From positions 13,082,001 through 13,146,000 of the forward strand of contig CM059432.1 in the NCBI GenBank assembly GCA_030390025.1: DNA of 64,000 nt. Direction: 5' to 3'. Below are positions 26,031 to 61,602 of this stretch, piece after piece. A program made the position numbers and the translations under genes. A model generated the notes under the pieces. It was not told the origin of the DNA. It was given only the letters and a program-made list of their open reading frames with translations, and ran no database searches. This DNA is from Squalus acanthias. Its lineage: Eukaryota. Numbering within the stretch: position 1 is the first letter of the stretch; each line of letters opens with the position of its first letter.

Positions 26031-27900
26031 AACTAAAGTTGGCAACATATCTACTGAAGAACAGGGATAGTCGCACAAATACTTTCCATCTGACTAAGAA
26101 TTGTTCTAATCATAAGATACTAGAGTGCCACCTAATGTCAAATGTTAGAATTTGGCTGGCTTTCTGTAAACAGTTATGCTGTGTATAAAAATTAGAATGA
26201 GACAATATTAGCATGCTGATTTCCTGGTCATGGTGACCTTTTATTGTTTTCTTTAGAGCCAAACTTAAACCACAAACCCTTTAAACAACTAACTACCTTG
26301 AGCGTGTACCACAAGTGATTGCCAGCAATTGGACAGGTGACTTCCAGCTGGATACTGCTGGAGGTTACACTGTAGCAACAAGAAACTAATACATAAGAGT
26401 TTTATTGTACTTACATGGCCAAAATTTAATCAAACATTGAAAGCAACTACAATTTTCTATCTAAAAAGCGTAGAAGCTTAAACATAGCAAACCAAATTTG
26501 TAGAACACGTTTTCTGGTAGATCACTCATACACGTCATTTATTGCACAAGAAAGGAGTATTCAGTAACAAGTCATGACCGTCTTACAAAGTAAAAACAGA
26601 ACCTCACTATATACTGTTTGTAATGGAATTTAAAAATACACATTTAGTTTGGTGCTAAATGCATGTTATTTTGAATTATTCAGAAACCAAGTTTATTTTA
26701 GAAGCTAGCAACACACTACAACATTCATTCAAGACACGATCGAATATAGCGTAGGAACGAGGCTCTTCAAATTTGCATTACAATGACTTCATTATATGAA
26801 GTTATATTCCACATAACTGATATATGTATATCATAGCTTGTGAAATGTGGGAACCCTCTAGGTCAGGTCATTACCTACCATTTCTAGATTACTTTCTGGA
26901 ATAAAATCTAATCCAATGCCATTTCCGGTCAAGGTCAGCAAGACTGTGTAGAGATCTGATCACTGGGGGGCTGTACACAGCTTTCAACTTTCTTTTCTGG
27001 TGGTGAATTTTCACTTCCTCCAGCGCTGATCTCCATTCAGTTGACTGTAACTATGATCCCTGACAATATCTGGTCTCCCCAGTGAGTAAAGCTGAAAATT
27101 ATTGAATATGAACTTGAAAAGCACTGCTCTAAAGGTCACTATTCCACAACAGAGAATTACTGTTCAGAATTCCTCAAGGCAATCTTCATTCAAATTTACC
27201 TCGCCTCAGAAGGTCCCTGAAGTGACTCAGAGACTGATCGAGTAATCTCTTGGTCACTTGCTCGCTGAGGGCAGCTAATTTCTTTTTTAAATAAATGTCC
27301 CAGCCAATTTTTCTCCTTTCCCCTCCTGAAGGGGAATATTCCTTGCTGGGGTGGCACTAATCACACCCCATACCTTACCCAGGAAGTCGTTTGTTCAAGA
27401 GCCTCAATAAGGAGAGTCTTTCAGGCTATTCTTCCACAACAGGATAGGAAGGTATCATCAAATCAAACGCTGATTCTGTCCTCATCTGATGATGTCTTTC
27501 GACAATGGGTCGCTGGATAGAAAGAGAGCAGGAACCTGGTTTGATTTTCCATTCCCAAGGCGGAGGTTATAGCTCTCCTACTGCTGCCCTGGCCATCAGC
27601 TATTTAGACAGAAGAGTTGCACCTCAGACAATCCTTGTTTATATGACTCAGCTACTCAAGAGATAAAACTCATGGAATGGGTGGACATGTGGCAGATGAA
27701 ATTTAACATAGAAAAGTGCTAAGTGATACATTTTGGTAAGAAGAACGAGGAGAGGCAATATAAACTAAAGGATACAATGCTAAAGGGGTGCGTGAACAGA
27801 GAGACCTGGGGGTATATGTGCACAAATCGTTGAAGGTGGCAGGGCAGGTTGAGAAAGCTGTTAAAAAAGCTTACGGAATCCTGGGCTTCATAAATAGAGG

Positions 27901-28699
27901 TCATGATGCGGAGATGCCGGTGTTGGACTGGGGTGGACAAAATTGAGAGGTCGCACAACACCAGGTTATAGTCCAACAGTTTTATTTGAAATCACAAGCT
28001 TTCGGAGCTTACTACTCCTTCGTCGGGTGAAGTAAAAAGATACAAAATCGCCAAAGCATATATAGATAGAGAACAATGCATGTGTACCTTACAATTGCAG
28101 ACAACTAAATTAAATCATCCTGACTATCTGCCGAGGTGTGATAAAGTTAATCAGGTCAGCCAGGAAGGTACCACATCAAAGACATAGCAAGATACAACTG
28201 AGACAATGAGGTGGAGTCGCAGGGGGTCTAACGTGTCAAAAGCTGCCGTCTGTATGTAAAACGATAAGCTTTAAAATTTTTACTTTTTTTACTGGGTTGT
28301 TGGCTTGTTCACAGATGTGATTCCCAGTAAAAAAGTAAAAATTTTCCCAGTAAAAAAGTAAAAATTTTAAAGCTTAGCGTTTTACATACAGACGGCAGCT
28401 TTTGACACGTTAGACCCCCTGCGACTCCACCTCATTGTCTCAGTTGTATCTTGCTATGTCTTTGATGTGGTACCTTCCTGGCTGACCTGATTAACTTTAT
28501 CACACCTCGGCAGATAGTCAGGATGATTTAATTTAGTTGTCTGCAATTGTAAGGTACACATGCATTGTTCTCTATCTATATATGCTTTGGCGATTCTGTA
28601 TCTTTTTACTTCACCCGACGAAGGAGTAGTAAGCTCCGAAAGCTTGTGATTTCAAATAAAACTGTTGGACTATAACCTGGTGTTGTGCGACCTCTCAAT
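27901..28699. mobile_element. Penelope-like inverted pLTR pair (about 355-bp arms)
   Basis: 27941-28296 is the near-perfect reverse complement of 28346-28700; matches 59720-60128; TSD TTCATAAATAGAG (27887-27899 and 28700-28712). Confidence 0.92.
28610..28649 (+). ncRNA. Hammerhead ribozyme motif with variant core CCGACGA (mirror copy on the minus strand at 27992-28031)
   Basis: ttcac-CCGACGA-a-ggagu(aguaa)gcucc-GAA-AGCU-U-guga. Confidence 0.55.
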
Positions 28700-29466
28700 T
28701 TCATAAATAGAGACAGAGTACAAAAGCAAGCAAGTTATGAACAACCTTTATAAAACACTGGTTCGGCCTCAACTGGAGTATTGTGTCCAATTCTGGGCAC
28801 TGCACTTTAGGAAGGATGTAAAGACCTTAGAGAGGGTGCAGAAAAGATTTACAATAATGGTTCCAGGGATGAGAGACTTCAGTTACGTGGATAGACTGGA
28901 GAAGCTGAAGTGTTCTCCTTAGAGCAGAGAAGGTTGAGAGGAGATCTGATAGAGGTGTTCAAAATCATGAGGGGTCTAGACAGAGTAGATAGAGGAAACT
29001 GTTCCCATTGGCAGAAGGGTCGAGGAACAGAGGACACAGATTTAAGGTGATTAGCAGAAGAACCAAAGGCGACATGAGGAAAAACCTTTTTACACAGCGA
29101 GTGGCTAGGACCTGGAATGCCACTGCCTGAAAGGGTGGCAGAGGCAGATTCAATCGTGGCTTTCAAAAGGGAATTGGATAAGTACCTTAAGGAAAAAAAT
29201 TGGCAGGGCTACGGGGAAAAGGCAGGGGAGTGAGACTCGCTGAGGTGCTCTTTCAGAGAGCCGGCACGGGCTCGACGGGCCGAATGGCCTCCTTCTGTGT
29301 TGTAACCATTCTATGATTCTAACCATTGGATGCCTGATTTGGTACTATGCCATACAGACCAGCGGTTTTCAGGTTCAATTTCTGGTGTGCGTTGAGCTTG
29401 CTGATCTCAGCTCTGACTGCAGTCAGGTGGTACAATTAGCCTCAGCACCTCAAGTTGGGGGTGAGG

Positions 29467-29467
<1 letters not shown>

Positions 29468-29504
<37 letters not shown>
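29468..29504. repeat. (GA)n microsatellite inside an old SINE-like repeat
   Basis: Read directly from the sequence. Confidence 0.9.
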
Positions 29505-29509
<5 letters not shown>

Positions 29510-31714
29510 CAAACAATAGCCAGGGTTTCTGCTCCTGATTAGTATCCAGTGGCTTCTGCAGGAACGTATATGTGCAACCATCAGGAATAGGATTGGACTC
29601 AACTGTGATGCCCAGTAAATAGCATGCAAATCCTTACCCAAGCTCTCATTAAAAATAGCCACTTGGGCAGGGTACTCTGGCAGCCAGTGATCCATAATGC
29701 AATAGAAATCAGCAGCATCAAGAAAAGAAGGAAGTTGGAAAGGTGAGTGAGAGAAACAAATTTTCAAAAAGAAAAGCAAGCAGATTTATGGCAGCCCTAT
29801 AACCCATCAGTAAACTATCTACCACCCAACCATGGAGTTGGGATAGATGCCCAGAGCAGTCAGTTCAATCCAAAAAGAGAGAAGTTGGAGACTCTTTATT
29901 TCCAGCCACATGATTAGACAGACTATCGGTCATGTGGAAGCGCACCGTCTCGAGGGAAATAAAACCAGAGAATGTCTAGCTTTCTCTCGCTTCTGTGGTA
30001 ATGCTAATCATAACATGGCATTGACTGAAATCATAGAATCATACAGCACAGAAGGAGGCCATTCAGCCCATTGTGCCAATGGAAATTGTGGTTAAACTAC
30101 AGAAGCAAAATTGACCAGACTTTCTGGTCATGCAGAATCAGGTACAGCAGCAATAATGAACTTGAGCAACCAGGATAATGAAGCTGGAATAGTTATAACT
30201 GAAATGCAAGACAGTTTCAGTATCAAAAGGCTGCTCAAATTGCAGAGTAAAGGTTAAAGCATTTCCAGAAGTCATTAGAAACTGCTCAGCTTACAACCTT
30301 CATTTTTCAAGGGTTATAATATAGTGGATCTCCCGTGTTATCGCACAGTGAGTCAGAGAATATGCTGGTTTCTTTCATTTAATGCTCAATTTTTATCTCA
30401 AACTCTGTTTCTTGTTTTTTTTTTTAAAGTACAGGAAACGGAACAATATGATAGACAAGAAGTGCCAGACTGGAGATAGGTACCTGGCATTTAGGAGTAT
30501 GGAGGAAGGGTTGTTAAATTTAGCAGCATTGACTGAGTGGTCTTGGAGTTTGGCAGCACTGCAGAGGGAGAATCAGACCTTCAGCAGGACTAGCAATATG
30601 ACTCACAGAGTGGGTGAAGGGGGTTCACTGGGATCTCAGCACAAACAGCATTCTCACCAGTCAGGAGGGAGGGTGCCTGGATTAGAGTGGCACTGGAAAA
30701 GAGGGCCTGGCTGCAGTAATGAGGTAAATCCCAGGATTTGGCAGAATTGGAGAGTTGGGTTCCAGGATGTGTGGTTGGTGGGAGGGGGAGGGAGGGAGGA
30801 GAGTGGAGGGGCGAGCAAAGAAGATTCTACGGTCTGTCCAGCATGGTTGGGGGGGGGGGGGAGAAAGAGAAGAGGCTCCCAGATCAATGGGATGTAGATC
30901 AATGAGTCTAGCAGCACTGAGGGAGCCAGGCAGAAAATCGCTCTTCCCACTGTCATGGGCACTTACGCCACCAATCCGGCACTGCCAGACTCTAGACCTC
31001 ATTCCTTCCTATGTACTGTCCAACATACTGTACCACAACTCCTGCTTGTTCCAGGGCAATAGGCACAATGTTGAGCTCATCATGCTTGCTATATACTAAC
31101 TACCAAGCTGCAGGTGAACAGGAGCTGCACCACTACAGATTACCCAAATTTAACATTACAGCTGAAGCTGGAAACGTAATTTTTTATTTATAGACGAGTA
31201 GAATGATTAGCAATTCTACCACTTACAGCAATCAACGGACACCATTCTTTCAAAAAATGAAACCACGATCTTGTACATTATAAATCAGTACCACACTTTG
31301 TGAACACTTACTTGAAAGGATGGTGACGGTCTCAAATTGGATTATACCGAGTGGTATTATACAGGCTCTTCCCAAGTCGCCCAATACAGTGAGTCATAAT
31401 CTGTCTGGGAAAGGTGAAGAAAACTAGAGGGCGAGTCAACTCATGCCACTATTGTACATCTCGTACCAGCTGATCAGACAGCAGCATAGGCACCTGGTCA
31501 CCTTTGTCTAGGAAGAGTGCATGGAGTGGAGACTTGGGAAGGGGGGGGGGGGAGGAAAAGAGATGAAGAGGTAAAGAGATAACAAAGTAACATTTTAACA
31601 AAGGCATTCAAGTCCATAAATTCTACATAATCAATGACAAGAAACCGGAGGTATAATTTTGTTAAAATAAGCGAGACAGAAAAAAAACACACAGTAGTTT
31701 AACATGTTAAAGAT

Positions 31715-31720
31715 TTTATT
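31715..31720 (-). terminator. Putative polyadenylation signal of the VAPA-like gene
   Basis: AATAAA on the minus strand about 580 nt after the stop codon, followed by a GU/U-rich tract (ctgtgtgttttttt). Confidence 0.55.
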
Positions 31721-32295
31721 TTCGTTAAATACCATGGGACAGGATTGGTAAGAATGGAGAGCTTTCAATCAACATTTGCCTCACAGGGGATGTTTCTGTG
31801 GCTAGGGAGAAACTCTGCATTGATAAACTGGTCAGCCTTCAGCAGCAAGGAAAGGAAGGGGGTAATTTACAAGGAGGCACCTTTTTTTTCAGTACATCTC
31901 TCATCACTGGTAAACAAGTGGCATGAGCAACCTGACTATAAAATGAAGAATTTCAAGAGGTAATCCAGCAACAGGTAACAAAATTTAAAAGGATTAAAAT
32001 AACATTTACAAGACACTTAACATTTCATTCAACTCTTATTAAACCACAGAGAGAACAACTCATTATTTCCAAGGACCTTTATGTGAAACCTTGAGACACC
32101 TGCTATTGATGTTTTGACAATGTACAACTCCAATTATCCAAGAACTGAAAGTAATTTGTGTGTTCTAACCGGGTGAGATCATTAAAGGCAAGGCCTGTAA
32201 GATGCTGTACACAAACATGGTCACTGTGAGCCATACTACCAATGATATGGCAGATCAACAGGACATTTCAGGCCTCAATAACTTGCATGCTTCCT

Positions 32296-32457
32296 CTACA
32301 AGATGAATTTCCCTAGAAAGAATCCAATGAAAATGGCTGCAATTACAACAAGGAGGGAGGGAAGAGCAGTGGAGCCGTTGTCTCTGTTTGCAACATTAGA
32401 TGTGGAAGACACTGGGTTGCCTGACTGAGCTGCCTTCCTCAGCCTCAGTCCATCATC
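32296..32457 (-). CDS. VAPA: VAPA(-like) last coding exon, containing the TM anchor
   Basis: ttctctttag acceptor, then [53 protein letters not shown]; the C-terminus matches the VAPA tail anchor. Confidence 0.93.
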
Positions 32458-34007
32458 CTAAAGAGAACAAAACAGTAGAGTTACAATGGAAATGCACCGC
32501 GTTAGGCAGCATCTCACAAATTCTCATAATTAGTCCAAACAGTGAGAATTTAGTTTTGTATCAACAGCCATTTGGCTCTTACCACCAATTGGTTTGCAGG
32601 CCACTGAATTACAGGTACCAGAAACTGCATTGTACCCCGTATTTTTTCATTTTTTAAAAAAATATATATATATAAACATTCTACATTTCATGCAAAGCTT
32701 AGTCTCAAGACAGGTCAACTACAAGCATCAAGTGGAAACAAGTTGCTTCTCCACACCAGGAAAACATCTGGAAAGGCAATCACTGGCCTGTTTTTGGGCC
32801 CCACCAAGTGGTCAGTTCTAGAGCAGATTTGACAGCAGCAGGAATAAGTCATCTCTGCTTTCGGTTGTGGAATGACGCATGGTTTTTGAATGGCAGAACA
32901 GTACAGATTAAGTTTCACCATATATCCTATAGACCATAATATATAAATTTACACACAGATGGATAAATATTTTAATTGTCTATTTATGAGGGTTAATGTC
33001 TCAGTTATGTGCTCAAATCCTTTCCAACAATATTTTCATTCCTTCAGTTTGTACAGGAGGTGGGGGCAAGAAAGAGTCTGTGTATTAGCCACAATATTGA
33101 CTCAAAAGCTTGAAGACCAAAAATCATTTTTACAGTCAAAAAAGTAAGTCATTTAATTCTGATGAGACACAATCCAAAAGTTTAGTCTCAGATTATAACT
33201 GTTCCATATGACCTTTGCTTTCGTGGGAAAGTCCACCAGAAACTTGCAAAGATAAATAAATTCCAACTCCGAGCGTTCAGAAAAGCTTTTGGAAAATTTC
33301 AAACAGGAAAATTTGAATTTGAACCAAAGGCAACAAGCTGGACGAGTGCCAGTCCAGGGCAAGCATACTCTGAGGATCCCATTCAGTCTCCTTTTCAAAA
33401 GGAGGATAATTGTCATCTGGTTCAAATGGAACACATTCCAGAATTGTGAAGGAATTGAGTGAGAAAACAAGTGAGGTTCAAGAGTTAATATTTTGGGGGC
33501 TCCACCCAAGTCAGGGGTTAGGAAATACTTTCCCAATAATCAAAAAAAACCTACAACCTAATATTCTAGTAGGAAAAATAATCAGCAGCATTTTACTGGA
33601 TACTAAACGCGACAGAACCCATGAGTAGTTAGCATGGCTTCAGAAGCAAAAGGGCATGCATCGCACAAAATTACTGGTATTGTAGGAGGAGGTAATTATA
33701 TTAGTGGATAAAGGTTAGCCAGTGGGTGCGAGTTACTTGGAATTTTTAGACAGCATCTGATAAAGTTCAGTATGTGATGCTTTTAAAAAGTCTCATGGAA
33801 TTGATGCAATTAATTAGCTGGATTACACATGGGGTAAGAAACAGAAAGCAGATGATGAAAAATGGAAAACGCTCTGCCTGGCCATGGCGCAGTAAGAAAT
33901 GAGAGTTAAGTGTGGGTCTCTTTTACGTCTGCTGCTGCTCATCATAATATTGTGAAGGAAGAGTAGTTCTGAATATGAAGATAACACCAAGCTTTGTGTC
34001 CAGGTGA

Positions 34008-34492
34008 CTTTTACAATTTACCAAAACAGAAGAAACAAATTAAAGTTAGCATATGAAAAAATATAAAAGTGCATTACAATCTCTGATCTTCATAAGTGCA
34101 TAATTGGGTGCTCAATTATTCAAATACCCTGAAATGTGCTAGGGATATTTATAGCATTCAAAAGGGATCTAGATTAATTAAGCAGATTTTATTACTGACA
34201 ATCAGAAGGGAACACATTTTAGAACAGCAAATATATGTTCATAATAAAAAAGTGCTCATTGTTCATAATAAAAAATGTTCATGAACAGAAAACAAAAAAG
34301 GATTAGGGTACAATTACTGACCATTTACTCAGTGACCAGTCAATGTGAAACTAAACAAAGCTACATTTCAGGGTATTTGAATAATTGAGCACCCAATTAT
34401 GCACTTGTGAAGATCAGAGATTGTAATGCACTTTTATATTTTTTCATATGCTAACTTTCATTTGTTTCTTCTGATTTGGTAAATTGTAAAAG
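34008..34492. repeat. 130-bp inverted duplication with a 225-bp spacer
   Basis: 34008-34137 is the reverse complement of 34363-34492 with about 3 mismatches. Confidence 0.9.
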
Positions 34493-35744
34493 CTGCGCAA
34501 AAATGCAGAGGTGCAATTTTAACTAGAAACGGTCAAGCATGCAGATTAAGCAAAAAAGTTGGTAAGAATCGGTTTGATTTGGAAGTCAAAGTGAACTCCT
34601 GTAACAAAAACACGCACACGGACTCGGTGCTGAAGGGCTGGAAGCAGAATACGTAGTGTAAATCCAATCCTTAAAAAGTTCAGGAATGGGATGCTGGAAA
34701 TTATAGGCATTATTTTGAACTCTACAGAGTAGAAAAAATTAGTCCAATGCAAGGAAGCATTCAAAAGCAGCTCGAATAAAGGCAATAACTCCAAGTTAAC
34801 ACAAGTTTATTTTAATTTTGCATGCAACTAGAAAATCGATAAAGGGAAGATGATTTCGAAAGTGTATTTAATAAGGTTTCTCCAGTATTGTGGCTGAAAC
34901 AAAACTGTACAAGAGCCACTATCAATGCTGTAAATTTGGTTGGCAAGATAGAAGAAAACAGTACTGCTGTCAATGGTAGTAGTTCCAACTTGTGATCTAA
35001 AATTACTCACATTAAGAACTAGGGTAAAGGATAAATTTGTTGTTTTAAAATAATTTCATAATGTGGTAGTAGATGGAGAAGTGTCATATGGAAGTAGGAG
35101 AGCTAGCAGACACGTATATAACAAAACTAAATCTTGAGTATCTTTCACACTTTGAGCCCATTTACAGAATGTAGGGCAGTTAACAGTCTTCAAAAGCATT
35201 AAAAAATATCAATATTCCTGACTTAGCACCAAGTCAGACGACAAATCAGAATCAACAGCTGTTAACTTCAAAGCAACGGTTTTCTGTTTCAGCCTGTTTA
35301 CTGGTAGATCATTCTCTAACAGGTTAGAGAAACTTCTTCTGTACTTAGTAACCAAATTTACACTCTAAATAGATAATAGCAATGTTCCACCTCCTGTCAA
35401 CAAAGCATAACTTGGGAATTCCAGATGGCTTTAGATGAAAAGAACACTGTTGACAGCTGGCATTTATGAGACACAAGAGACTTGCAAAGCTTTCAAAATC
35501 TCATGGCAAACAGCAGGGATGACCATAAATCCAGGCAAGTAGCCTGTTAATCCCAGATTTTGTTGGTTTAATAAGGCTGGTCTGAAACCAAGGCTTGTTT
35601 AGTTTGGTCTTGAATTTGATGGAAATATGAACCCCAAAAACAAAATCAAAACTAGGGAGAAAGAGTTAGGAAGGAGTCTCTACTTCTGAATTATATTCAG
35701 TTGGGCAGTGATTTTAATGAAGATCTTTGCAGTTGTATCCAAGT

Positions 35745-38213: not shown

Positions 38214-38253
<40 letters not shown>

Positions 38254-42860: not shown

Positions 42861-44692
42861 CTACTGTTAAAAAGCTATGCTGAGTGGCCCAAATGAACTC
42901 ATGTTTCTCCACGTGCTTTGCAATTTAATTCCATAGTCTGGTAGTTTACCAACAATAACTGGTCTAAGAGTTCCTGGCTTATCTCTGTCTTCTTTAAGGT
43001 AGGGTGCCACATTTGCTACCCTCCAGCACAATTTTTATTTGCACAGAATGTTGGAAAATTAAGGGTTCGAGTCTCTGCTAGTTCTTCCCGAGCTTCCCTC
43101 AGAATCTTCAAATGTTAAACCAACAGGCCCTACTGATTTGACTACCTTACGTTTCAGTAGCTTCTTTAGTAACATAACCTCCACTAACTGCACTACATGG
43201 GTCCCTGGGTGGTTCCACAATCTCAATAACCAGCTTCTCTGTGAAAACTGAGAAAGTATTTATTTAATATATGATGTGATATTATGCAATACAAGCCAGA
43301 AAATCCCAGGCTCAATTCAAACCCTCCAGCGGAGGTTGGGTTCCTACAATTGGTCTTTGCACCCCTAAATTAAGGAGGGGGGGAAAAGTGTTAGCTAGAT
43401 TTCCAGCTCCTGAATGCTAATTGGCAAGGTACCTTCAAAACCTAAACCAGGCAAGAGTTGGCATCTTCAGGTAAAATTTATAATGCTGGGAATGGCAATG
43501 TGTCAGATATGGATTGCAATTTAATACGGTAACATGCATCTTGTAATCTAAAATCACAAGTGCATAAATTCAGCATCAAGCAAATCTCAAAAAAAAAAAT
43601 CAGAAAACATCACAATGCCAGATCACTATATACACATTGCTGTATCAAATAGCAGTAAATCAAGTTTACTTGTAAGTAGTGGAACACATTTTAATCCAGG
43701 ATCGTTATCCCAAAATGTATTTCATACTATAAAAACTGGTGTAAAAGACCACTTGCACTTCTGCACAGACTCCCAAGTTATGAGAACTTGCAGTAAAGTG
43801 CAATTTATGCACCAGATTTCACGGTATTTTTATCTTCTGAACCCTGAAAGCAATCCAACGATGTGTCTTCAAATATTTATAAAATCATAGGTGACCCCCC
43901 CATCTGTGTTTTTAGCTCTGACTTGTTTTAAAAAAAAATACAAGAATGGGATTTCCACCCCCTTAGCAAGTTTATCCTGAAAGTTGCTGAACCACACCAT
44001 CAAGAAGGTCGGAGGTTCAATGCCCAATGTCTGCAGTAATGAAGTTTGAATTGCTTCTTTCACTTAAAGATCAGATTAGTTTGTGATCAAATTAGTTTGT
44101 TCCTTGATTTATTTACAGCAGTGTTCCTTTGATTTGAATACCATTTTGTTTCATTGGATAGATTTGCACATTTGATGTGTGAAATGTTCATATTGGTTAA
44201 GTTATGTATCTCAGTATTTGTGATATTGGATATATGTACATGGTCAATTGTACATATATGAATGAAGTATTGCAGAGTATGTACGAAAAACATTACTTCA
44301 GAAGGAAGCTAATCAAAGTGTTTGGTTTCGTATCCAATAGATTAAACAACTCAAATTCTTCCAAATTATGGTACTAGATTCAACAAGAATCTGGGCTTAT
44401 CGCCCTACTGGAGGACAAAGATACTTTACGATACACTGATACTGAAAGTTTTACGAGAAGACAGAAGCAATTGAATTTGATGTACATATCTAAAGAGACT
44501 CAAAAACAGACATCCCAGCGAAAGGTAATCAATCCATAACAGACTGTCTCATTGTATGTATGAATATGTTAATGTGTTATATATATATATATGCTTTTAT
44601 CATTTATTGAATAGTGTGTTGTAAATAAATGTTAGCCCCTTTAATCTGCATGCCTTTGATCCTATGGCAATATCCATCATTTCAAAGAGTTT

Positions 44693-44931
44693 ATGATGTG
44701 GAGATTGACACGTTGGACCCCCTGGGACACATCTCATTGTCTTGGCTGTGCTCTTAGTGTGTCTTTGATGTAGGGAAAGATTTGAATACATTTTTTCTGT
44801 GTTTATATTGTGAATTCTGGGAGATTCTCTCACAGCTACCCTACCTGAAGAAGGAGCGACAGCTCCGAAAGCTTGTAAAATTAAATAAATCTGTTGGACT
44901 ATAACCTGGTGTTGTGCGACTTCTCATTTTT
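44693..44931 (+). mobile_element. Penelope-like pLTR fragment from a diverged subfamily, with a hammerhead motif
   Basis: Homologous to 59830-60128; 13-bp TSD TT(T/C)CAAAGAGTTT (44680-44692 and 44932-44944); begins with an inverted piece of the tail, ATGATGTGGAGAT. Confidence 0.8.
44842..44877 (+). ncRNA. Minimal type-I hammerhead ribozyme motif
   Basis: uac-CUGAAGA-a-ggagc(gaca)gcucc-GAA-AGCU-U-gua. Confidence 0.7.
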
Positions 44932-45847
44932 TTCCAAAGAGTTTGTTAGTGTAACGCAAGTCTAAATCAAATCAAGTAAATAGATTACAGCAAGTACAAG
45001 CTGTTAATCCCTTGCATACACACCGTCAAAGTAAAAGGGCTAAGATCTGCTCATCTGTTAAACCATTGAGACAAACTGCTGAATGAAAATGCAAAATTAT
45101 AACACTTGTTGACTTGCATTAGGCAGAGCATTACCATTGCCCTCAATTACACTGGCTTATGGGCGGGACAAGCAGAGATGGTGAAGAGAAGAGAGTGAGA
45201 GTTCTTGCTCCTCTTCATTATCCAGTAACGGCTGGAAGTACATGTGTGGACCTCAGGTGATAACATCAGGTGAGTAAAGGATCAGGCTCAGCTGTGATGC
45301 ACCCCATTCTAATAAACCTGCAGACACACAGTCAAAGCTCAAGTGAATAGTGTCCACTTAGTCCAAGTACTGGAGGAAGACTGCTGACCATCAGTCAGAG
45401 CCATGGTAAGGAAAAAACACATTTTAGAAACAAGAAAAGCTCATTATTAGGCACAACCAGTTTATCCCTCTTAACTATTTAAACACAATTCTGTACTATA
45501 ATGGTGTCTTTATATGCATTATATGGAAGTAAAGCTTCTGTACTTTTACTGGAGGATGCATTCAAAGGCAGTCAAGTAAGTTGGCGTACTGGTGCAATGC
45601 AACACAGTAGGTTCCAAGCTCGTATCTGCAATTCTGTGGCACACTACACTGGCTCATCAACTTACTCAACTGCCTTTGTACACATATTCTAATAAATGGT
45701 CCAAAAACCTCCCTATCTCACCCAGGCCAACTGATCACACCAATTCTCGTGGAAGGAGAAGGGAAATGCATGTATTACAATCATGTACCCTCTAGCAAAC
45801 AAATCTTGAGCAGCACTAGTTGAGGCCTGGAAGCAAGTGGCCTAAGT

Positions 45848-50063: not shown

Positions 50064-50744
50064 CTAAGGAAATGAAAAAAGTCTGTGTAAATAACCACTC
50101 CTTGGACACAGAAAAATCATCAAAAATTATCAGTAGAAACAGTAGCACAAACAGTGAAGAACTCACTTTAAAACTGTTCAACAACCTATCCCAAAGCACA
50201 CTCTGTCTGCAGACGAGAGACAGTCAGTTCAATAATGCACATCACAAGCTTTCAATTAAAATAAAAAATTTTAAAGGCCACTTTTCTAAGGTTAAAGTGG
50301 AAATGTGCCAGAAATCTGGAGATTTTCATGCCGAAAAGTGCAGCATTGACTGTAGAATTCCAGACTAGTATTTTGATAAAGGTGCAACATTTTCAAATCA
50401 AGAACAGTATTTTTTGAATTTAGGAAACAAATTAAAGAAATGCCTAGTCTAAGGCGAATAGCGCCTTTTTAGTATGATACAATTACAGAACAAATCAAAT
50501 GTGCTTCAAGCTTTCTTGGTAGATCACAGTTAACTGGACTACAGTGAAATACTTTCCAGCACCCAGTTTTCTAAAAAATTAAATAGATCTTAAGAAACCA
50601 TGGGTTCAAATGGGTCTGACACAGGTATTTTAAAATTTTGTACAAACTTTTCACAAACCTACACATCACTGGATGTTCCCAAAATTGAATTTACCACCAA
50701 CAGGCAGGCGATGGGCTGCAACGACTGCAATTAACACCGTTCAA

Positions 50745-51095
50745 TGAATCATAGAATAGTACAGCACAAAAGGAGGCCATTCGCCCCATCGAGTCTGCGG
50801 CAGCTCTTTCGAAGAGCAATCCAGGTTGTCCCACTCCACGCTCTTGGCCCATATCCCTGCAATCCTTTCTCCTTCAAGTATTTATCCAATTTCATTTGGA
50901 GGGCTACTACTGAATCTGTTCCCACCACCCTATCAGGCAGTGCATTCTAAATCCCAAACACTTGTTGCGTAAAAAAGTTATTCCTTACGTTGCCTCTGAT
51001 TCTTTTGCCAATCACCTTAAATCTGTGCCCTCTGATTATCGACTCTTCAGCTATTGGAAACAGTTTCTCTTTATTTACTCTAGCTAAACCCTTAA
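50745..51095 (-). mobile_element. CR1 3' fragment
   Basis: Same subfamily as 13955-14302. Confidence 0.8.
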
Positions 51096-52834: not shown

Positions 52835-53235
52835 GGGTATGGTAGCATAGTGGTAATGTTACTGGACTAGTAATCCAGAGGCCTGGACTAATGATCCGGA
52901 GACATGAGTTTAAATCCCACCACAGTAGCTGGGGAATTTAAATTCAGTTAATTAAATAAATCTGGAATAAAAAGCTAGTATCAGTAATGGTGACCATGAA
53001 AGTACCGGATTGTCATAAAAACCCATCTGGTTCTCTAATGTCCTTTAGGGAAGTAAATCTGCCGTCCTTACCTGGTCTGGCCTATATGTGACTCCAGACC
53101 CACAGCAATGTGGTTGACTCTTAACTGCCCTCTGAAATGGCCCAGCAAGCCACTCAGTTGTATCAAAGGGAAAGTAGGGATAGGCAATAAATGCTGGCAT
53201 TGCTAGCGACGCCCACATCCCATGAATGAATAAAA
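52835..53235 (+). mobile_element. HE1-like SINE
   Basis: Paralogue of 22304-22718. Confidence 0.82.
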
Positions 53236-53299
53236 CCCTCAGTGAAGAAATTTCATCTCATCTCAGTCTTAAATGGCCGACCCCTCATCCGGAGACTGT

Positions 53300-54143
53300 G
53301 GGGGAGAAATTTGGTATCGCCCCGTTTGGGGCGCAATTATCGGCCGGGCACAAAGTTTAGCGCCTGGTGCTAATTATCGCCTCCGACTGCAAACTTGGCT
53401 TCTATCACCCCTGGAGGTGATTGGAGCGCTAAATCAGGCAGTACACCCCTCTCTTAAGGCGCTAATGCCGAGGAGTGAGGCGCTACCTCAGAGCACTGGC
53501 GAAGCTCAGCTGATGTCAGTCAGCAATGGAACACAGACACACTGGCCAGTTGTTAAAGGGGAGGGTCGATCTTGCTCTCCATCCACTCCCTGCTCATTGC
53601 AGCCTTGAATCTCGGCCTGGGGAGACCTGCACATCAATTCTGCAGGAAAGAACAATGGAGAGACCCAGGGAAAGAGCTGAGTGCAGCCCCCATAGTCTCT
53701 TCTAAATCGATGCAAGGAAGGTCAAATCAAAATGAACCTGCAAAGTGCTGCTCAGTACCCAAAACTCCTTCACACAGCGTTGAACCTCTCCAGAATGCGT
53801 GGTGCAAAAATGTCGCCAACAAAAAAAGGCAGGAAGCGGTCGCCTTTAAATGGCGCTCCCCCAGTCCCATCCCGACTGCAAAGCGTTCCCCTCAACCTGT
53901 CGTTGCTAGCGGCAGGCGGAAAGGCAGGGGGCGCCACTCAATATCCGGTCCGGGGCGCTGCACACTCGACTGACGTCGTCACGATCTGCGGGCGCAGGAG
54001 ATCGTGGCGGTAGTGTTTAGCGCCGCCGCAAAATGTCTGGTCAATTTTGCGAGAGGCGCAAACATCGCCGTGCCCGGGCACTAGTTGCTTTGCACCCCAT
54101 TAAGGCGCTAACGGGAGGCGCAAAGCAACCAAATTTTTCCCCC
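53300..54143 (-). mobile_element. Non-autonomous PIF/Harbinger MITE
   Basis: Ends GGGGGAGAAATT and AATTTTTCCCCC, flanks TGT and TAT; paralogue of 18015-18897. Confidence 0.85.
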
Positions 54144-54662
54144 TATGTCCCTAGTTCTAGACTCTCCAGCCAGGGGAAACAACCTTTCAGCATCTACCCT
54201 GTCAATCCCTCCTAGAATCTTATGTTTCAATGAGATCACCCCTCCCTCATTCTTCTAAACTCCAGAGTATAGGCCCAATCTACTCAATGCATTGGTAATG
54301 ACATTAAAAGATACAAGGGAATAAGACTGTTGATATCAGAAGCAATCCAAAAATTCTTACATTAAGATTAAATAAATGAGCTTGGTAAAATTACTACAAG
54401 ACTAGGTAATTTTCTTAAATGCTTTCTTTAAATCAGTTTTCACATGAAGATTGAACAAATTTCTCAACCTGTCCTTTTGGTTCAGGCATCTACAACATAT
54501 ATACTTATGAAAAGAAAGGCATTATTAAGAAACTCAAGATTTTAACCTCTGCAGGGCACCCAAGCCAAATCTTGGGATACCTCCAAGAAAATGACTAAGT
54601 AAACAATATAAAGTTCTGGTTGATATTTGACACTGATAAATAAATGGATGGATCCAAGAATA

Positions 54663-54947
54663 GATTTTAGGTGATTGGCAGAAGAACCAAATGTAACATG
54701 AGGAAAAACCTTTTGACGCAGCAAGTGGTTAGGATCGGGAATGCACTGTCTAAAAGGGTGGTGGAGGCAGATACCATCGTGGCTTTCAAAAGGGAATTGG
54801 ATTAAGTAGCTGAAGGAAAAAAAATTTGCAGGGCGACGGGAAAAGGGCGGGGGAGTGGGACTAGCTTAAGTGCTCTTGCAGAGAGCTGGCACGGGCTCGA
54901 TGGGCCGAGTGGCCTCCTTCTGTGCTGTAAACCATTCTATGATTCTA
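54663..54947 (+). mobile_element. CR1 3' fragment
   Basis: Matches 29040-29320; attctatgattct tail. Confidence 0.8.
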
Positions 54948-55409
54948 ATAGGAAACTAGCAATTGTCATCTCCAACTTTAAAAGGAATGAAGCATCAACC
55001 CAAAATTTCAGATTGATTAGTCCAACGCTTCTAGTGTGAAAAACACTTGCACATTTTTAGAAATGCTACTGAATATTTTTCAAAGAGTACAAATCTCAGT
55101 CACAGCATGGATCTACTGGAATTCTTTGAGCTACTGAAATTAATTAAGAATTATCCAGTAATTTAGTTGGATTTTCAGAAGCATTTATTCTACTCGTGTG
55201 TCTTTTAAAAGACCATTAAACCTCATGACTAAATGACAAATTAGCTAGCTGGGTTAAAAACTGGCTTCGCAATAGACAGCAGAAGGCAATAAAAGAAGTG
55301 CTCTTCTGAACAATGACTATTGAAACTACAAACAGATGGGTCTTCAGCCCCGTTATTCCCATTACTCAGAGAAGGCTAATTCTAACAGTGTTGCAAGTAG
55401 ATATTAATT

Positions 55410-56130
55410 ATCAGGGCAATTGTTAGCATTCAAGGTGATCCTGACAAATTAAAGTAGACGTGCTAAGGAATGAGGGATGCATTTTAATGAGAATATAAAC
55501 ATAAGGTAATATATGTTGAAACATGAAACACTGCTATGCTACTAGCAAAGGTAGAAAGTGAAAAGAATCTTTTAGTCTTTGTATTGAATTACTTAACTAG
55601 AATAAAGCACTCTCGCACTTCACTTCAGCTGGGAGGGCGAGATTGAACATTGCCATCAGCTTTTGTTAAATGCTTCATCTCGTGAGCCAGCTAGAAGTTA
55701 CAGGATCTTTCCAAATGACGTGAGGATTATGGGCTTGAATTTTGCCTAGAGTATTTGTGTGCTTCCACTAGAATTATGGGGCCTGCCTTCTAAGCCCTGG
55801 TCCAAATTTGTAATAGGTTTTATTCTAGAGCAGTGGCTGTTGTTGAAATTAAAATTCAGAATTTTTGACTTGTCACCTGCCTTTAAGTCCAGCTTCATTG
55901 GTTTCACATACCTGCCTTTAAGTCCAGCTTCATTGGTTTCACATCAACTATGTGACTAGTTAATAGCCCAAAATTCTTTTCACTTTCTACCTTTGCTAGT
56001 AGCATAGCAGTGTTTCATGTTTCAACATATATTACCTTATATTTATATTCTCATTAAAATGCATCCCTCATTCCTTAGCCTGTCTACTTTAATTTGTCAG
56101 ATCACCTTGAATGCTAACAATTGCCCTGAT
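55410..56130. repeat. About 158-bp inverted duplication with a ~400-bp spacer
   Basis: 55410-55568 is the near-perfect reverse complement of 55973-56130; the spacer has a 35-bp tandem duplication (55875-55944). Confidence 0.9.
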
Positions 56131-56945
56131 GTTAACTGCAACTGTTTGGTTCAGTGCCAAAAATTCTTTCCCATTTCTGCTAAAAATGTACAGAATTATG
56201 GCATAAAATTTCCACTACCACTATTCCTACTTGATTCAGCATCTGACTGGTGTTATTTTTTACCTCACCACTGAAGCAATCAATAAACCAGCAGTAGGTG
56301 AAAAAGTTCAGGTAGTACTGTATGAGCAACATTTCTACGGCAATTGCTGCATTGAGACGGCATCACAAAGTGGGACAATTTAGTCAAGAATCTACAGCTT
56401 TTACAGCAAATTCTAGCAACTTTTTTCACTATATGCAATTCAACAATTACAGTAATACCAACTGCACCTAGAGAAACTTCAAATAGCAACAGCATTACCC
56501 TTTCACAAAAAATGGAAATAAATTGGACTCTGTTGAACCAATTAAGCATGCCCTACACTTTGAAGATAACCTTATCTATCAAGAATATACAGTAATCCAC
56601 AGAGCCTACTTTTTCATCCAATCTTCACTTTCTAATTGAAACATGCAGAGCAATACAAGTAACATCTAGAAACTGCAGCAAAGTCAGCCTGTCTACCTCT
56701 AACATGATGCTGACTGATCACCAGCACGGCATTAGGTTAGGTATGGGTATTGGGAAGAATTTGTAAAGATCACTAATTGTAGTCAGTAAAACTTTATGAA
56801 GTACACAAAACAGAGGTGGAACAAACTGATTTTTGTTTTTTAAAACACAGGTTTTACAAATCTTAGAATTAGTAGTACTGGCTGTTGGAGAATGCAGTAA
56901 ATACTTTCGCTCTTTTAATCCTTACTGATAAAATGTAATACTTAC

Positions 56946-57049
56946 TACTGCCTCCATGTCTGCAGCGCCAGGCGGAGCATAGACTGTCTGTACCATGAAT
57001 TTGTGTTTGCTTTTCTCATTGGGATCATAGTCAAATGGCTGTAACATTA
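56946..57049 (-). CDS. VAPA: VAPA(-like) MSP-domain exon (104 nt)
   Basis: tccctctccag acceptor, (V)[34 protein letters not shown], gtaag donor; upstream exons lie outside the window. Confidence 0.95.
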
Positions 57050-57708
57050 CTGGAGAGGGAAAACAGAAGTGTTAGTTTTGAGAAGGCCAGGGGGTTGGTT
57101 CTTAATTTGAACATTTAAAAACTGTTAGCGCATGAAGTAACTGTTGCCCCTCCCGTTAGTTTAAATACTATTCAAGTGATGATGATAAATAAAGTAGCTG
57201 CCTAGCCCTGGTGTTGCCATTAAGTCTCCAGTCTAGATACCGGTAAGTGGTGCATTGATTCCCTTAATCTGTCTAAAAATGTAACTACAGCAGTGCGAGT
57301 ACACGAATAGCTAGTACTAAGAATCAGATAACAAACTTCTGATGAACAACCACTACCACTGGCAGTGCTTTTAAGTTTCAGTTCTCATTTTCTGCCAGGC
57401 ATGAACAAGCAAACAGCTGGAATTGGCACTGAAATTCAGTATACAAGCTGGTTACACATTGCCATCCACTGGCAAGAATCAATTTGAAGACCAAAATACA
57501 AATGAACATTTTTTCTTCGGTGGTCCGGAATAAATGGGGGGGAAAAAAGACCCGAACCTCAGAATATCCATGAAATACAAGACCACTGGAAGGTGTTTTA
57601 CATACTTACACACAAAATAGTATACTTGATCACTCAGGCAAGCAACTGAAAATGCTGGGAATAGACAGCAAGTCTGTACGCATCGATAATGGCAAAATAA
57701 ATGTTCAC

Positions 57709-57870
57709 CAATGTTCCCTTTAATTTTTTTTGGGTGCGCGGCCCCTTTAACGGGCTGCACATCCCATTCGAATACCCGCACCGGCGCGTTTCTTCCTACT
57801 TAAAAGCCAATACGCCAGCTGCGCAGGAGCTTGGACAGCTGTGCGGCCGCACAGCTTAACGGGAACATTG
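57709..57870. mobile_element. hAT-type MITE (162 bp)
   Basis: TIR CAATGTTCCC/GGGAACATTG and a perfect 8-bp TSD ATGTTCAC (57701-57708 and 57871-57878). Confidence 0.88.
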
Positions 57871-58683
57871 ATGTTCACCCTTCCATATCCAGAAGGGTCC
57901 ACACGAAAAATCTTTTCTCTTTACAGTTGTGATTGAGCTGGCGTGTATTTCAGCATTTTCTGTTTTTATTTCAGATTTCCAGTTTCTTGCCATCAGGTTA
58001 GTAACTGATATTATCTCAAGACCACACTTCAGTACACCAGGTTAGAAACTGATACCAGCACTCCTAGAATCATAGAATGGTTACAGCACAGGAGGCCATT
58101 TGGCCCATCGAGTCCGTGCCGGCTCTCTGCAACAGCACTCCAGCTAGTCCCACTCCCCCGCCCCTTCCCTGTAGCCCTGCAAATTCCTTCAGGTACTTAT
58201 CCAATTCCATTTTGAAAGCCATGATTGGATCTGCCTCCACCACCCTTTCAGGCAGTGCATTCCAGATCCTAACCACTCGCTGCATAAAAAAGTTTTTCCT
58301 CATGTCACCTTTGGTTCTTCTGCCAATCACCTTAAATCTGTGTCCTCTAGTTCGCAACCCTTCCGCCAATGGAAAACAGTTTCTCTCTATCTACTCAGTC
58401 AAGATCCCCCCATGATTTTGAACACCTCTATCAGATCTCCTCTCAACCTTCTCTGCTCTAAGGAAAACAACCCCAGCTTATACAGTCTATCCACGTAACT
58501 GAAGTCCTTCATCCCTGGAACAATTCTTGTAAATCTTTTCTGCACTCTCTCTAAGGCCTTCACATCCTTCCTAAAGTGCAGTGCCCAAAACTGGACACAA
58601 TACTCCAGTTGAGGCCGAACCAGTGTTTTATAAAGGTTCATCATAACTTGCTTGCTTTTGTACTCTATGCCTCTATTCATGAT

Positions 58684-59706
58684 AACATAAACAAGTTCCA
58701 TCCCACCATCAAACTCACCATGGACTACTCCTCAGAATCGGTCTCATTCCTGGACACACGAATCTCCATCAAAGACGGACACCTCAGCACTTCACTCTAC
58801 CGCAAGCCCACGGACAACCTCACGATGCTCCACTTCTCCAGCTTCCACCCTAACCATGTTAAAGAAGCCATCCCCTATGGACAAGCCCTGCGAATACACA
58901 GGATCTGCTCAGACGAGGAGGAACGCGATGGACACCTACGGACGCTGAAAAACGCCCTCGTAAGAACGGGATATGACGCTCGACTCATCGATCGACAGTT
59001 CCGACGGGCCACAGCGAAAAATCGCATAGACCTCCTCAGAAGGCAAACACGGGACACAACCAACAGGGTACCCTACGTCGTCCAGTACTTCCCCGGAGCG
59101 GAGAAACTACGACATGTTCTTCGCAGCCTTCAACATGTCATCGATGACGACAAACACCTCGCTAAGGCCATCCCCACGCCTCCACTACTTGCCTTCAAAC
59201 AGCCGCCTAACCTCAGAAGTGCCATCGTTCGCAGCAAATTACCCAGCTTTCAGGATAACAGCGACCACGACACCACACAACCCTGCCATGGCAAACTCTG
59301 CAAGACATGCCAGATCATCAACACAGATACCACCATCACACGTGAGGACACTACCCACCAGGTACATGGTACATACTCATGTGACTCGGCCAACGTTGTC
59401 TACCTCATACGTTGCAGGAAAGAATGCACCGCGGCATGGTACATCGGCGAGACCATGCAGACACTGAGACAACGTATGAACGAGCACCGCGCAACAATCG
59501 CCAGGCAGGATTGTTACCTCCCAGTCGGGGAACACTTCAGCAGTCAAGGACATTCAGCCTCGGATCTGCGGGTAAGCGTTCTCCAAGGCAACCTTAGAAA
59601 CACACGACAACGCAAAATCATCGAGCAGAAACGGATAGCCAAGTTCTGCACTCATGAAGACGGTCTCAATCGGGATCTTGGGTTTATGTCACGATACATG
59701 ACGTGA
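58684..59706 (+). CDS. Penelope RT C-terminus/thumb plus GIY-YIG endonuclease (partial, uninterrupted)
   Basis: VSFLD...LYRKPTD...SFHP; Cys linker CHGKLCKTC; NVVYLIRC...YIGET...R.RMNEHR; HF...GH; GLN. Confidence 0.9.
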   Translation, partial: NINKFHPTIKLTMDYSSESVSFLDTRISIKDGHLSTSLYRKPTDNLTMLHFSSFHPNHVKEAIPYGQALRIHRICSDEEERDGHLRTLKNALVRTGYDARLIDRQFRRATAKNRIDLLRRQTRDTTNRVPYVVQYFPGAEKLRHVLRSLQHVIDDDKHLAKAIPTPPLLAFKQPPNLRSAIVRSKLPSFQDNSDHDTTQPCHGKLCKTCQIINTDTTITREDTTHQVHGTYSCDSANVVYLIRCRKECTAAWYIGETMQTLRQRMNEHRATIARQDCYLPVGEHFSSQGHSASDLRVSVLQGNLRNTRQRKIIEQKRIAKFCTHEDGLNRDLGFMSRYMT

Positions 59707-60039
59707 TCCGGACTCGAGTCGTCGTTAGCTTGTTCACAGATGTGATTCCCAGTAAAAAAGTAAAAATTTTCCCAGTAAAAAAGTAAATTTTTTTTTTAAG
59801 CTTTTCGTTTTACATACAGACGGCAGCTTTTGACACGTTAGAACCCCTGCGACTTCACCTCATTGTCTCAGTTGTATCTTGCTATGTCTTTTGATGTGGT
59901 ACCTTCCTGGCTGACTTAATTAACTTTATCACACCTCGGCAGATAGTCAGGATGATTTAATTTATTGGTCTGCAATTGTAAAGTACACATGCTTTTTTTT
60001 CCATCTATATATGCTCTGACGATTCTGTATCCAATTTAC

Positions 60040-60078
60040 TTCACCTGAGGAAGGAGCGATAGTTCCGAAAGCTTGTGA
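60040..60078 (+). ncRNA. Minimal type-I hammerhead ribozyme motif
   Basis: uucac-CUGAGGA-a-ggagc(gaua)guucc-GAA-AGCU-U-guga, followed by AATAAA at 60084. Confidence 0.72.
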
Positions 60079-61602
60079 TTTCAAATAAAACTGTTGGACT
60101 CTAACCTGGTGTTGTGCGACCTCTCAATTCTATTCATGAAGCCCAGGATCCCATATGCTTTTTTTAACCGCTTTCTCAACCTGCCCTGCCACCTTCAACG
60201 ATTTGTGTATATATACCCCCAGGTCTCTCTGTTCATGCACCCCCTTTAGGATTGTACCCTTTTGTTTATATTACCTCTCCTCGTTCTTCTCTCCTCGTTC
60301 TTCTTACCAAAATGTATCACTTAGCACTTTTATGCATTAAATTTTTCTGCATTAAATTTCATCTACCACATATCTGCCCATTCCACCAGTCTGTCTATGT
60401 TCTCTTGAAGTCTATCACTATTCTCCTCACTGTTCACTATACTTCCAAGTTTTGTGTCATCTGCAAATTTTGAAATTGTGCCCTGTACACCCACATCCAA
60501 GTCATTAATATATATATCAAGAAAAGCAGTGGTCCCAGTACCGACCCCTGGGGATCACCACTGTATACCTTCCTCCAGTCCAAAAAACAACCATTCATCA
60601 CTCTGTTTCCTGTCACTTAGCCAATTTCGTATCATGCTGCCACTGTTCCTTTTATTCCATAGGCTTCAACTTTGCTGGCAAGCCTATTATGTGGCACTTT
60701 ATCAAACGCCTTTTGGAAGTCCATGTATACCCCGTCAACCGTACTGCCCTCATCAACCCTCTCTGTTACCTCATCAAAAAACTCAATCAAGTTAGTTAAA
60801 CACAATTTGCCTTTAACAAATTCGTGCTGGCTTTCCTTAATTAATCCACACTTGTCCAAGTGACTGTTCATTTTGTCCTGGATTATCGTTTCTAAAAGCC
60901 TCCCAACCAGAGATTAAACTGACTGGGTTTATCCTTACGTCCTTTTTTGAACAAGGGTGCAACATTTGTAATTCTCCAGTCCTCTGACACCACCCCCCGT
61001 ATCTAAGGAGGATTGGGCGATTATGGCCAGTACCTCCGCAATTTCCACCTTTACTTCCCTCAGCATCCTAGGATGCATCCCATCTGGTCCTGGTGACTTA
61101 TCTACTTTAAGAACAGCCAGCCTTTCTAGTACCTCCTCTATCAATTTTTAGCCCATCCAGTATCTCCACTACCTCCTCTTTCACTATGACTTTGGCAGCA
61201 TCTTCTTCCTTGGTGAAGACAGATGCAAAGTACTCATTTTGTACCTCAGCCGTGCCCTCTGCCTTCATGTGTAGGTCTCCTTTTTGGTCCCTAATCAGCC
61301 CCACTCCTCCTCTTACTGTGAAGGAATAAGCCATATAACCTATTCAGAAAAATACACCATCTTATGAAAGAATTCTGGCCTTATTAAAACATGGCAAACT
61401 GGGTTTGGAAATTTAGAAACCTAACTATGAAATAGCTATGAAAGCATTCTGGCTATTGAGATAAGATAGTTGTTGACACTGAATCAATAACCTTATTGAA
61501 ACAGAAGGTGAAGGGCTCAGACAGGCTGACCTTTGGGGAAAAAAAACAATGGTTCACCCTGGATGAGGTGTTCTAATTTTCACTTCGTAAAGAAGCACAT
61601 AA

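What the first reader, a model, noticed from the sequence alone, without database searches (positions are those of the whole stretch)
27887..60139. Two independent Penelope insertions at the same 11-bp site of one CR1 subfamily
Seen: both the 27.9-kb and the 58.7-kb PLE insertions duplicate TCATRAATAGA within the CR1 RT sequence cctgggctTCATRAATAGAg. They point in opposite directions relative to the CR1 and differ in 5' junction, content and ribozyme core, so one is not a copy of the other. Other CR1 subfamilies here have a different sequence at this position (about 10445, 15200, 16095, 62215) and are uninterrupted. Known: PLE GIY-YIG endonucleases are generally described as having only loose AT-rich preference. 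Inference: this PLE may have a hotspot inside another retrotransposon's ORF, giving it a multicopy safe haven that also inactivates the CR1. Caveat: n=2, and the other two insertions in the window (24.4 and 44.7 kb) are at unrelated sites.
Basis: partly seen in the sequence, partly recalled or inferred. Interest (0 to 1): 0.75.

Follow-up and report, generated by a model that had tools for sequence, protein, structure and literature searches.

The report
Penelope element cuts a mirror-image target
A young Penelope-type jumping gene in this shark-like genome has landed at least 639 times, independently, at one spot of a CR1 LINE, likely because that spot is among the best multicopy matches to a mirror-image DNA motif found at its landing sites in non-repeat DNA too, which suggests a likely paired enzyme cutting both strands 12 bases apart rather than a hunt for CR1.

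Summary
The hotspot is real. Genome-wide, 436 sense and 203 antisense junctions join the exact pLTR end to this site, against 4,894 exact empty sites. That is about 8-12% occupancy and about 5% of the family's insertions. 45 of 48 resolvable copies have different 5' breaks, so the insertions are independent.

CR1-seeking is not supported. Targets in non-repeat DNA share a pseudo-palindrome, (C/A)TGNN-12 nt TSD-NNCA(G/T): 34 of 45 carry both TG and CA, against 0.57% of background. The window's 24.4-kb insertion fits it too. A matrix trained without CR1 ranks this site 1st or 2nd of 2,127 CR1 positions. The host copies were already dead fragments.

The motif is incomplete. It under-predicts this site about 8-fold or more, and a homologous site in another subfamily scores well but is nearly empty (3 junctions, 16,245 empty sites).

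The element is a Neptune-type PLE with intact ORFs. Dimeric cutting and priming from both nicks are inferred. Six literature searches found no such motif in print. This scan noted the same reading earlier in other windows of this genome and in other genomes.

The parts
27666..27886 (+). Host CR1 copy 1, upstream part; 5'-truncated, begins near ORF2 aa 682 of 935
   Evidence: tblastn
27887..27898 (+). Target-site duplication, left copy (TTCATAAATAGA)
27900..28296 (-). Inverted PLE arm: pLTR with the long (41-nt) tail facing outward
   Evidence: 96% to the reference unit
28296..28700 (+). Direct PLE arm: pLTR ending without tail at CTCAATT
28700..28711 (+). Target-site duplication, right copy (first T shared with the element end)
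28712..29320 (+). Host CR1 copy 1, downstream part with stops (3' end approximate)
58060..58671 (-). Host CR1 copy 2, 3' part (outer end approximate)
58672..58682 (+). Target-site duplication, left copy (TCTATTCATGA)
58683..60128 (+). 5'-truncated PLE: ORF 3' part 58684-59706 (RT thumb, Cys linker, GIY-YIG) and pLTR ending without tail
   Evidence: 97% to the reference unit
60129..60139 (+). Target-site duplication, right copy
60140..61132 (-). Host CR1 copy 2, 5' part; truncated near ORF2 aa 429, with stops
24413..24656 (.). Third insertion of the same family, twin-ended, in non-repeat DNA; 12-nt TSD GATAACACAGTT at 24413-24424 and 24645-24656, framed by CTGGT and AACAT, which fit the motif
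62210..62221 (-). Empty homologous position in another CR1 subfamily (CpG in the spacer); the genome-wide cold control

Best explanation
The CR1 site is hit at least 639 times by independent insertions of a Neptune-type Penelope-like element whose landing sites in non-repeat DNA share a two-fold symmetric motif, (C/A)TGNN-12 nt-NNCA(G/T), and it is likely a hotspot because it is a very good, multicopy match to that motif rather than because it is CR1. Shown: the pile-up; independence; the motif in non-repeat DNA, with C favoured at -7, T at the first TSD base, and an AT-rich, CpG-poor spacer; duplications of 11-14 nt centred on 12; insertion in both orientations at the same pair of boundaries; one tailed and one tail-less end in twin-ended inserts; a small excess of microhomology. 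Inferred: a protein dimer holds two GIY-YIG domains on the two half-sites and nicks each strand 2 nt 5' of CA, leaving 12-nt 3' overhangs. Either or both 3'-OH ends prime reverse transcription on the element's RNA at one of two start points about 38 nt apart, helped by 1-3 nt of pairing. When both prime, the two cDNAs join head to head. Unexplained: what lifts this site about 8-fold or more above a simple matrix, and what keeps a similar site about 30-fold below it.
For: Counts. Independence: 45 distinct 5' breaks in 48 resolvable copies of 60 fetched. Motif from 25 non-repeat events with an exact 12-nt TSD: G at -3 in 47 of 50 half-sites, T at -4 in 43, C/A at -5 in 41, G at -5 in 0. 34 of 45 non-repeat events have TG-N16-CA against 0.57% of 190 kb background; a matrix trained on 10 events puts 16 of 17 held-out events in the top 0.6%. 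A matrix trained without CR1 ranks the site 1st or 2nd of 2,127 positions, and its top-12 lists include positions homologous to other observed CR1 targets. The window's other CR1 copies at 10445, 15200 and 16095 score 3.5 bits or less. Twin-ended inserts have one short and one long end in 63 of 65, and in 23 of 23 among the first 100 unselected ends (my count). The N-terminal 300 aa is predicted to self-pair: score 0.53, best control 0.15, pLDDT 59, runs share at least 15% of contacts; that mark was reached by 21 of 30 microbial and 17 of 29 eukaryotic solved homodimers and by 0 of 23 and 0 of 30 single chains. The anole PLE protein cuts and extends both strands, starts at two adjacent RNA sites and is predicted to be a dimer (PMC11167929, parts 1-2 of 4 read).
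Against: The matrices under-predict the site: expected occupancy 0.04-1.3% against about 8-12% seen. The homologous site of another subfamily scores about as well (expected 0.17-0.66%) but has 3 short-end junctions against 16,245 empty sites. A site 451 nt upstream in the same subfamily, ranked first by the core matrix, has only 3, though the wide matrix predicts about that rate. One half of the hot site has a mismatch at -4. The older 44.7-kb copy does not fit the motif. 'Non-repeat' means at most one spanning BLAST hit in the fetched loci only. For TSDs not exactly 12 nt the register was chosen by best score, which is partly circular. The dimer score is modest, and only 1 of 7 eukaryotic homodimers without an older solved relative reached that mark, so a pass may come from memory. 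No cleavage was measured.
Confidence: 0.78

Rival explanations
1. The motif sets the base position, but an added CR1-linked factor (chromatin, nucleosome placement or an extended protein contact evolved on this subfamily) makes this one site a favoured refuge.
For: Occupancy is about 8-fold or more above the best matrix. The site takes about 5% of insertions at about 1.5 millionths of the genome. Only 45 of 100 resolved targets were left as non-repeat after filtering.
Against: Within the same subfamily a second predicted site is nearly cold, so the CR1 context alone does not raise insertion. Non-CR1 repeats have recurring sites too. Host copies are about 90% alike to each other and mostly broken.
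Confidence: 0.13
2. The symmetry comes from one monomer nicking the two strands in turn (as GIY-YIG homing endonucleases do) or from two independent ribonucleoproteins, not from a stable dimer.
For: Group I intron GIY-YIG enzymes act as monomeric nickases (PMC8557442, passages). TSD lengths spread over 11-14 nt. Most insertions have only one exact outward end.
Against: Both half-sites are constrained at a fixed spacing even in single-ended inserts. The short/long pairing is strict. Self-pairing of the N-terminal helices is predicted (with the limits given above).
Confidence: 0.2
3. One CR1 copy that already carried the PLE was amplified, by retrotransposition or segmental duplication, so the pile-up is inherited.
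For: Two of 48 copies share the same break on both arms (L040, L048).
Against: 45 distinct 5' breaks among 48, both orientations, inserts from 32 nt to over 1.5 kb; matches are spread over many contigs.
Confidence: 0.01

Closest known systems
Neptune-clade EN+ Penelope-like elements (PMC8557442, passages read)
   Same: Single ORF with telomerase-like RT and C-terminal GIY-YIG; CX2-5CxxC linker upstream of the GIY-YIG; pLTRs, partial tandems, inverted 5'-truncated copy, 30-40-bp tail at one end.
   Different: The paper describes microsatellite bias for Neptune, Naiad and Chlamys, and variable TSD length set by a late second nick. Here the target is a non-repetitive gapped palindrome and the stagger centres on 12 nt.
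Poseidon PLE of Anolis carolinensis, PAc (PMC11167929, parts 1-2 of 4 read)
   Same: Two adjacent RT start sites that define the tail; both strands cut and extended; predicted dimer through N-terminal helices.
   Different: PAc prefers ATT in AT-rich DNA on the substrate tested and primes without homology. This family has a TG...CA two-sided motif and a small microhomology excess (1.25 vs 0.65 nt).
rDNA-targeting PLE-X families of spike mosses (PMC8557442, passages) and other target-specific elements such as R2, Dada and Tx1L (PMC8869645, passages; Tx1L only as a cited title there)
   Same: Repeated insertion at one base of a multicopy sequence.
   Different: Those are tied to one target (PLE-X lacks the GIY-YIG domain). 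This family puts most insertions elsewhere, at many sites that share a short motif.

Membership tests
Endonuclease-positive Penelope-like element | Single ORF with telomerase-like RT | tested here: met
   892-aa open frame in L278; RVT_1 in the L181 copy; best fold matches are TERT
Endonuclease-positive Penelope-like element | C-terminal GIY-YIG with CCHH motif | tested here: met
   Y792, C796, C800, Y805, G807 and H820 are near-invariant in 98 aligned sequences; a second His lies at 836 in the sequence. Pfam did not call GIY-YIG on the L181 or window protein, but many relatives carry PF01541.
Endonuclease-positive Penelope-like element | pLTRs, partial tandems or inverted copy, optional 30-40-nt tail | tested here: met
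Endonuclease-positive Penelope-like element | Hammerhead ribozyme in the pLTR | tested here: inconclusive
   No Rfam hammerhead hit; CTGAGGA...GAAA core-like letters seen by eye (core motif recalled)
Neptune clade (versus Nematis) | CX2-5CxxC linker before the GIY-YIG | tested here: met
   C753, C758, C761 in 97, 97 and 96 of 97 ungapped rows; the paper gives this motif to both Neptune and Nematis
Neptune clade (versus Nematis) | RT phylogeny with named reference elements | not tested
   No named reference sequences were available from the tools
Target-specific retroelement of the R2/Tx1 kind | Nearly all copies at one site of one multicopy target | tested here: not met
   About 5% at this exact site; 10 of 76 unselected events at this position counting variants; 45 of 100 resolved targets non-repeat
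Target-specific retroelement of the R2/Tx1 kind | Endonuclease cleaves the target sequence in vitro | not testable with these tools
   Needs purified protein

The most novel reading that the evidence does not exclude
This PLE is a retrotransposon that integrates like a dimeric transposase or restriction enzyme: it reads a 22-26-bp gapped palindrome, makes a concerted double-strand cut with a fixed 12-nt stagger, and primes reverse transcription from both ends at two different RNA start points. That would explain the one-sided tail and the inverted copies of Penelope elements in general, and its best genomic site happens to lie in a LINE's thumb codons.
Probability: 0.5. Interest if true: 0.8.

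Novelty: new variant of a known kind. Interest (0 to 1): 0.62.

Why it matters
PLE endonucleases are described as having moderate, AT-rich or microsatellite preferences and variable duplications (PMC8557442, PMC11167929). A defined symmetric target with a near-fixed stagger gives a ready substrate for testing how PLEs integrate and why they carry a tail at one end and an inverted copy. The pair of homologous CR1 sites, one about 10% filled and one about 0.02% filled, is a natural experiment on what else the enzyme reads. It also shows that a pile-up of one transposon inside another need not mean targeting of that transposon. A sequence-selective RT-endonuclease with intact genomic copies could interest gene-insertion work.

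Tried and rejected
Composite amplification of one filled CR1: rejected.

CpG methylation as the reason the homologous site is cold: targets avoid CpG (4 of 198 junctions have one in the first 14 nt, against 30, 35 and 34 in the next three windows; 3 of 100 targets against 28% of motif-matched background). But CpG-decayed copies stay cold (2 junctions, 3,826 empty sites by subtraction), so CpG is not the main cause.

The core 6-position matrix as a full account: rejected, because it ranks the -451 site first and that site has 3 junctions.

The idea that the tailed arm is always the short arm: not held, since L024's tailed arm is full length.

No result from: Rfam for a hammerhead; a PDB sequence search. 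The script stopped with an error in its last block, so the density of homologous sites in random DNA was not obtained. The '+16' site was scored in a wrong register and is ignored. Genome-wide occupancy of the other hotspots (aa ~475, ~607, and the non-CR1 repeat) was not counted.
Full report
OBSERVATION. The two insertions are as described, with small corrections. At locus 1, TTCATAAATAGA stands at 27887-27898 and 28700-28711 around a head-to-head pair of pLTR arms; the left arm carries a 41-nt tail. At locus 2, TCTATTCATGA stands at 58672-58682 and 60129-60139 around a 1,446-nt 5'-truncated copy with the ORF 3' end. Both split the same CR1 ORF2 codons, aa ~757-760 of a 935-aa reference. The hosts are 86% identical to each other, 5'-truncated and carry stops. 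The window is G000:C8:13082001-13146000 in a 3.71-Gb genome. The nearest named proteins are from sharks, at 80-93% identity.

GENOME-WIDE COUNTS. The exact 19-nt pLTR end occurs 16,519 times. The first 100 matches make 76 insertions by my count (23 outward-facing pairs and one internal pLTR), so about 12,500 insertions genome-wide, an extrapolation from one 17-Mb stretch. 436 junctions join the end to the site in the CR1 sense and 203 in antisense. Empty exact 20-mers number 4,894. The filled pattern tests only 10-11 nt of the site, and 39 of 60 fetched filled loci show both exact halves, so occupancy is 8-12%. The site takes about 5% of insertions while making up about 1.5 millionths of the genome. 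Insertions with only a tailed end are not in these counts.

INDEPENDENCE. I fetched the first 30 of 436 and the first 30 of 203. Twelve ran off the locus edge. Of the other 48, 45 have distinct 5' breaks, lengths run from 32 nt to over 1 kb, and only L040 and L048 share both breaks. This rules out amplification of one filled copy.

THE TARGET IS A MOTIF. I resolved duplications of 10 nt or more in 128 events from 246 junction rows; the rest were dropped. In the two sets not chosen for this site, 90 of 97 duplications are 11-14 nt. From 25 events with an exact 12-nt duplication and no spanning repeat hit, the 50 half-sites have G at -3 in 47, T at -4 in 43, C or A at -5 in 41 and G at -5 in none; both sides show the pattern without symmetrising. 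After dropping ten loci I judged CR1-related, 45 non-repeat events remain. 34 have TG-N16-CA, against 0.57% of 190 kb of evenly spaced background. A matrix trained on 10 events from C1 0-17 Mb puts 16 of 17 held-out events in the top 0.6%. Further biases are C at -7 (46 of 90), T at the first TSD base (45 of 90) and an AT-rich spacer (3.5 vs 5.2 G+C of 12, p = 7.5e-8). The held-out set was selected for a non-T base after the pLTR end. The window's 24.4-kb insertion fits the motif; the 44.7-kb copy, 82-85% identical to the young family, does not.

WHY THIS SITE. 83 of 196 junction flanks map to CR1 ORF2, and 57 of these lie at three positions: aa ~475 (12), ~607 (17) and ~758 (28, three from this window); twin-ended inserts count twice. 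Matrices trained on the 25 non-repeat events rank the site 1st, 1st and 2nd of 2,127 positions across 29 aligned empty copies, and their top-12 lists include positions homologous to other observed targets. The empty copies were picked by an exact match at this site, which favours it somewhat. The window's other CR1 copies at 10445, 15200 and 16095 score 3.5 bits or less nearby; the one at 62210 scores 7.3.

WHAT THE MOTIF MISSES. With 45 events, predicted occupancy of the site is 0.04%, 0.18% or 1.3% by matrix width, against 8-12% seen. The homologous site of the subfamily at 62210 is predicted at 0.17-0.66% but has 3 sense and 0 antisense short-end junctions against 16,245 empty sites. That subfamily was available, since it is hit a few codons downstream (L091, L125). 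Its spacer has a CpG, and targets avoid CpG, but decayed copies stay cold: 2 junctions against 3,826. A site 451 nt upstream in the hot subfamily has 3 junctions; 16 of 29 copies reach it, so this is near the wide matrix's 0.15% and well below the core matrix's 0.56%. So the CR1 context alone does not make a site hot, and real discrimination is sharper than an additive matrix from this few events.

THE ELEMENT. L278 holds an open 892-aa ORF. Its model has mean pLDDT 92, its best fold matches are telomerase RTs, and no solved chain matches by sequence. A C-x4-C-x2-C linker and the GIY-YIG tyrosines, glycine, two cysteines and first histidine are near-invariant in 98 aligned sequences. PMC8557442 (passages) gives that linker to the Neptune and Nematis clades. 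Long copies in the loci are a median 97.7% identical to the reference unit (87 hits).

MECHANISM. Shown: sense and antisense insertions use the same two boundaries; element ends cluster at two points, near the pLTR end and about 38 nt into the tail; twin-ended inserts have one short and one long end in 63 of 65 (two of the three sets were selected for a short end) and in 23 of 23 unselected pairs; microhomology at the 3' junction averages 1.25 nt against 0.65 +/- 0.06 in 2,000 permutations (132 junctions). Inferred: a dimer nicks each strand 2 nt 5' of CA, leaving 12-nt 3' overhangs, and either or both ends prime. Two copies of residues 1-300 scored 0.53 against a best control of 0.15, with pLDDT 59 and at least 15% shared contacts. 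The mark was met by 21 of 30 microbial and 17 of 29 eukaryotic homodimers (animals 7 of 16; 1 of 7 without an older solved relative) and by 0 of 23 and 0 of 30 single chains. This is weak support. Whether one or two RNAs template the two arms I did not test.

LITERATURE. PMC11167929 (parts 1-2 of 4): the anole Poseidon protein cuts and extends both strands, prefers ATT, starts at two adjacent sites and is predicted to be a dimer; its supplements were not read and may bear on target preference. PMC8557442 (passages): moderate preferences, microsatellite bias, variable TSD, rDNA-targeting EN-less families. PMC3846280 (passages): 8-10-bp TSDs, one-sided tail, one copy inside a LINE, self-priming proposed for inverted copies. 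PMC9977147, PMC8869645 and 10.64898/2026.07.22.740005 (passages) gave no such motif. Six searches (listings seen) showed no report of a gapped palindromic PLE target. The library lacks most subscription papers and Repbase reports, so absence from print is not established.

EARLIER SCAN NOTES. After I had reached this reading (note), look-ups showed unreviewed notes with the same conclusion in other windows of this genome and in other genomes. They are not independent evidence.

VERDICT. A real and strong hotspot, best explained by a symmetric sequence preference of a Neptune-type PLE (0.78), not by CR1 targeting. New variant of a known kind; interest 0.62.

Noticed in passing
window 6057-9900 (approximate end): Tandem array of about 104 or more copies of a 34-nt unit, about 95% alike.
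   Followed up: no
window 44690-44936: Older PLE relative, 82-85% identical to the young family, with a roughly 12-nt duplication that does not fit the TG...CA motif; it may be decayed or have another preference.
   Followed up: partly
window 24586-24607 and every pLTR end: The element's own pLTR end contains a TG-N16-CA match (6.1 bits) with two CpGs in the spacer; it could serve as a self-target for tandem formation.
   Followed up: partly
L011, L019, L020, L094, L097, L103 (C1 0.8-5.3 Mb): Seven insertions at one position of a non-CR1 repeat (CCATCAAACAC), with junction microhomology to either RNA start point.
   Followed up: partly
L106, L115, L116, L244: Recurring target in another short repeat, SINE-like by recall.
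   Followed up: no
L190 minus strand, 876-residue open frame: A second, different PLE-like ORF with a GIY-YIG-type C-terminal end by eye, found in a background stretch; its target preference was not examined.
   Followed up: no
L265, L271: Insertions whose two flanks come from different parts of a CR1 or from CR1 and other DNA, suggesting a deletion or rearrangement at integration.
   Followed up: no
window 34008-34492 and 55441-56100: Two further inverted-repeat pairs (130-131-nt arms, 97-98% complementary) without the exact pLTR end.
   Followed up: no
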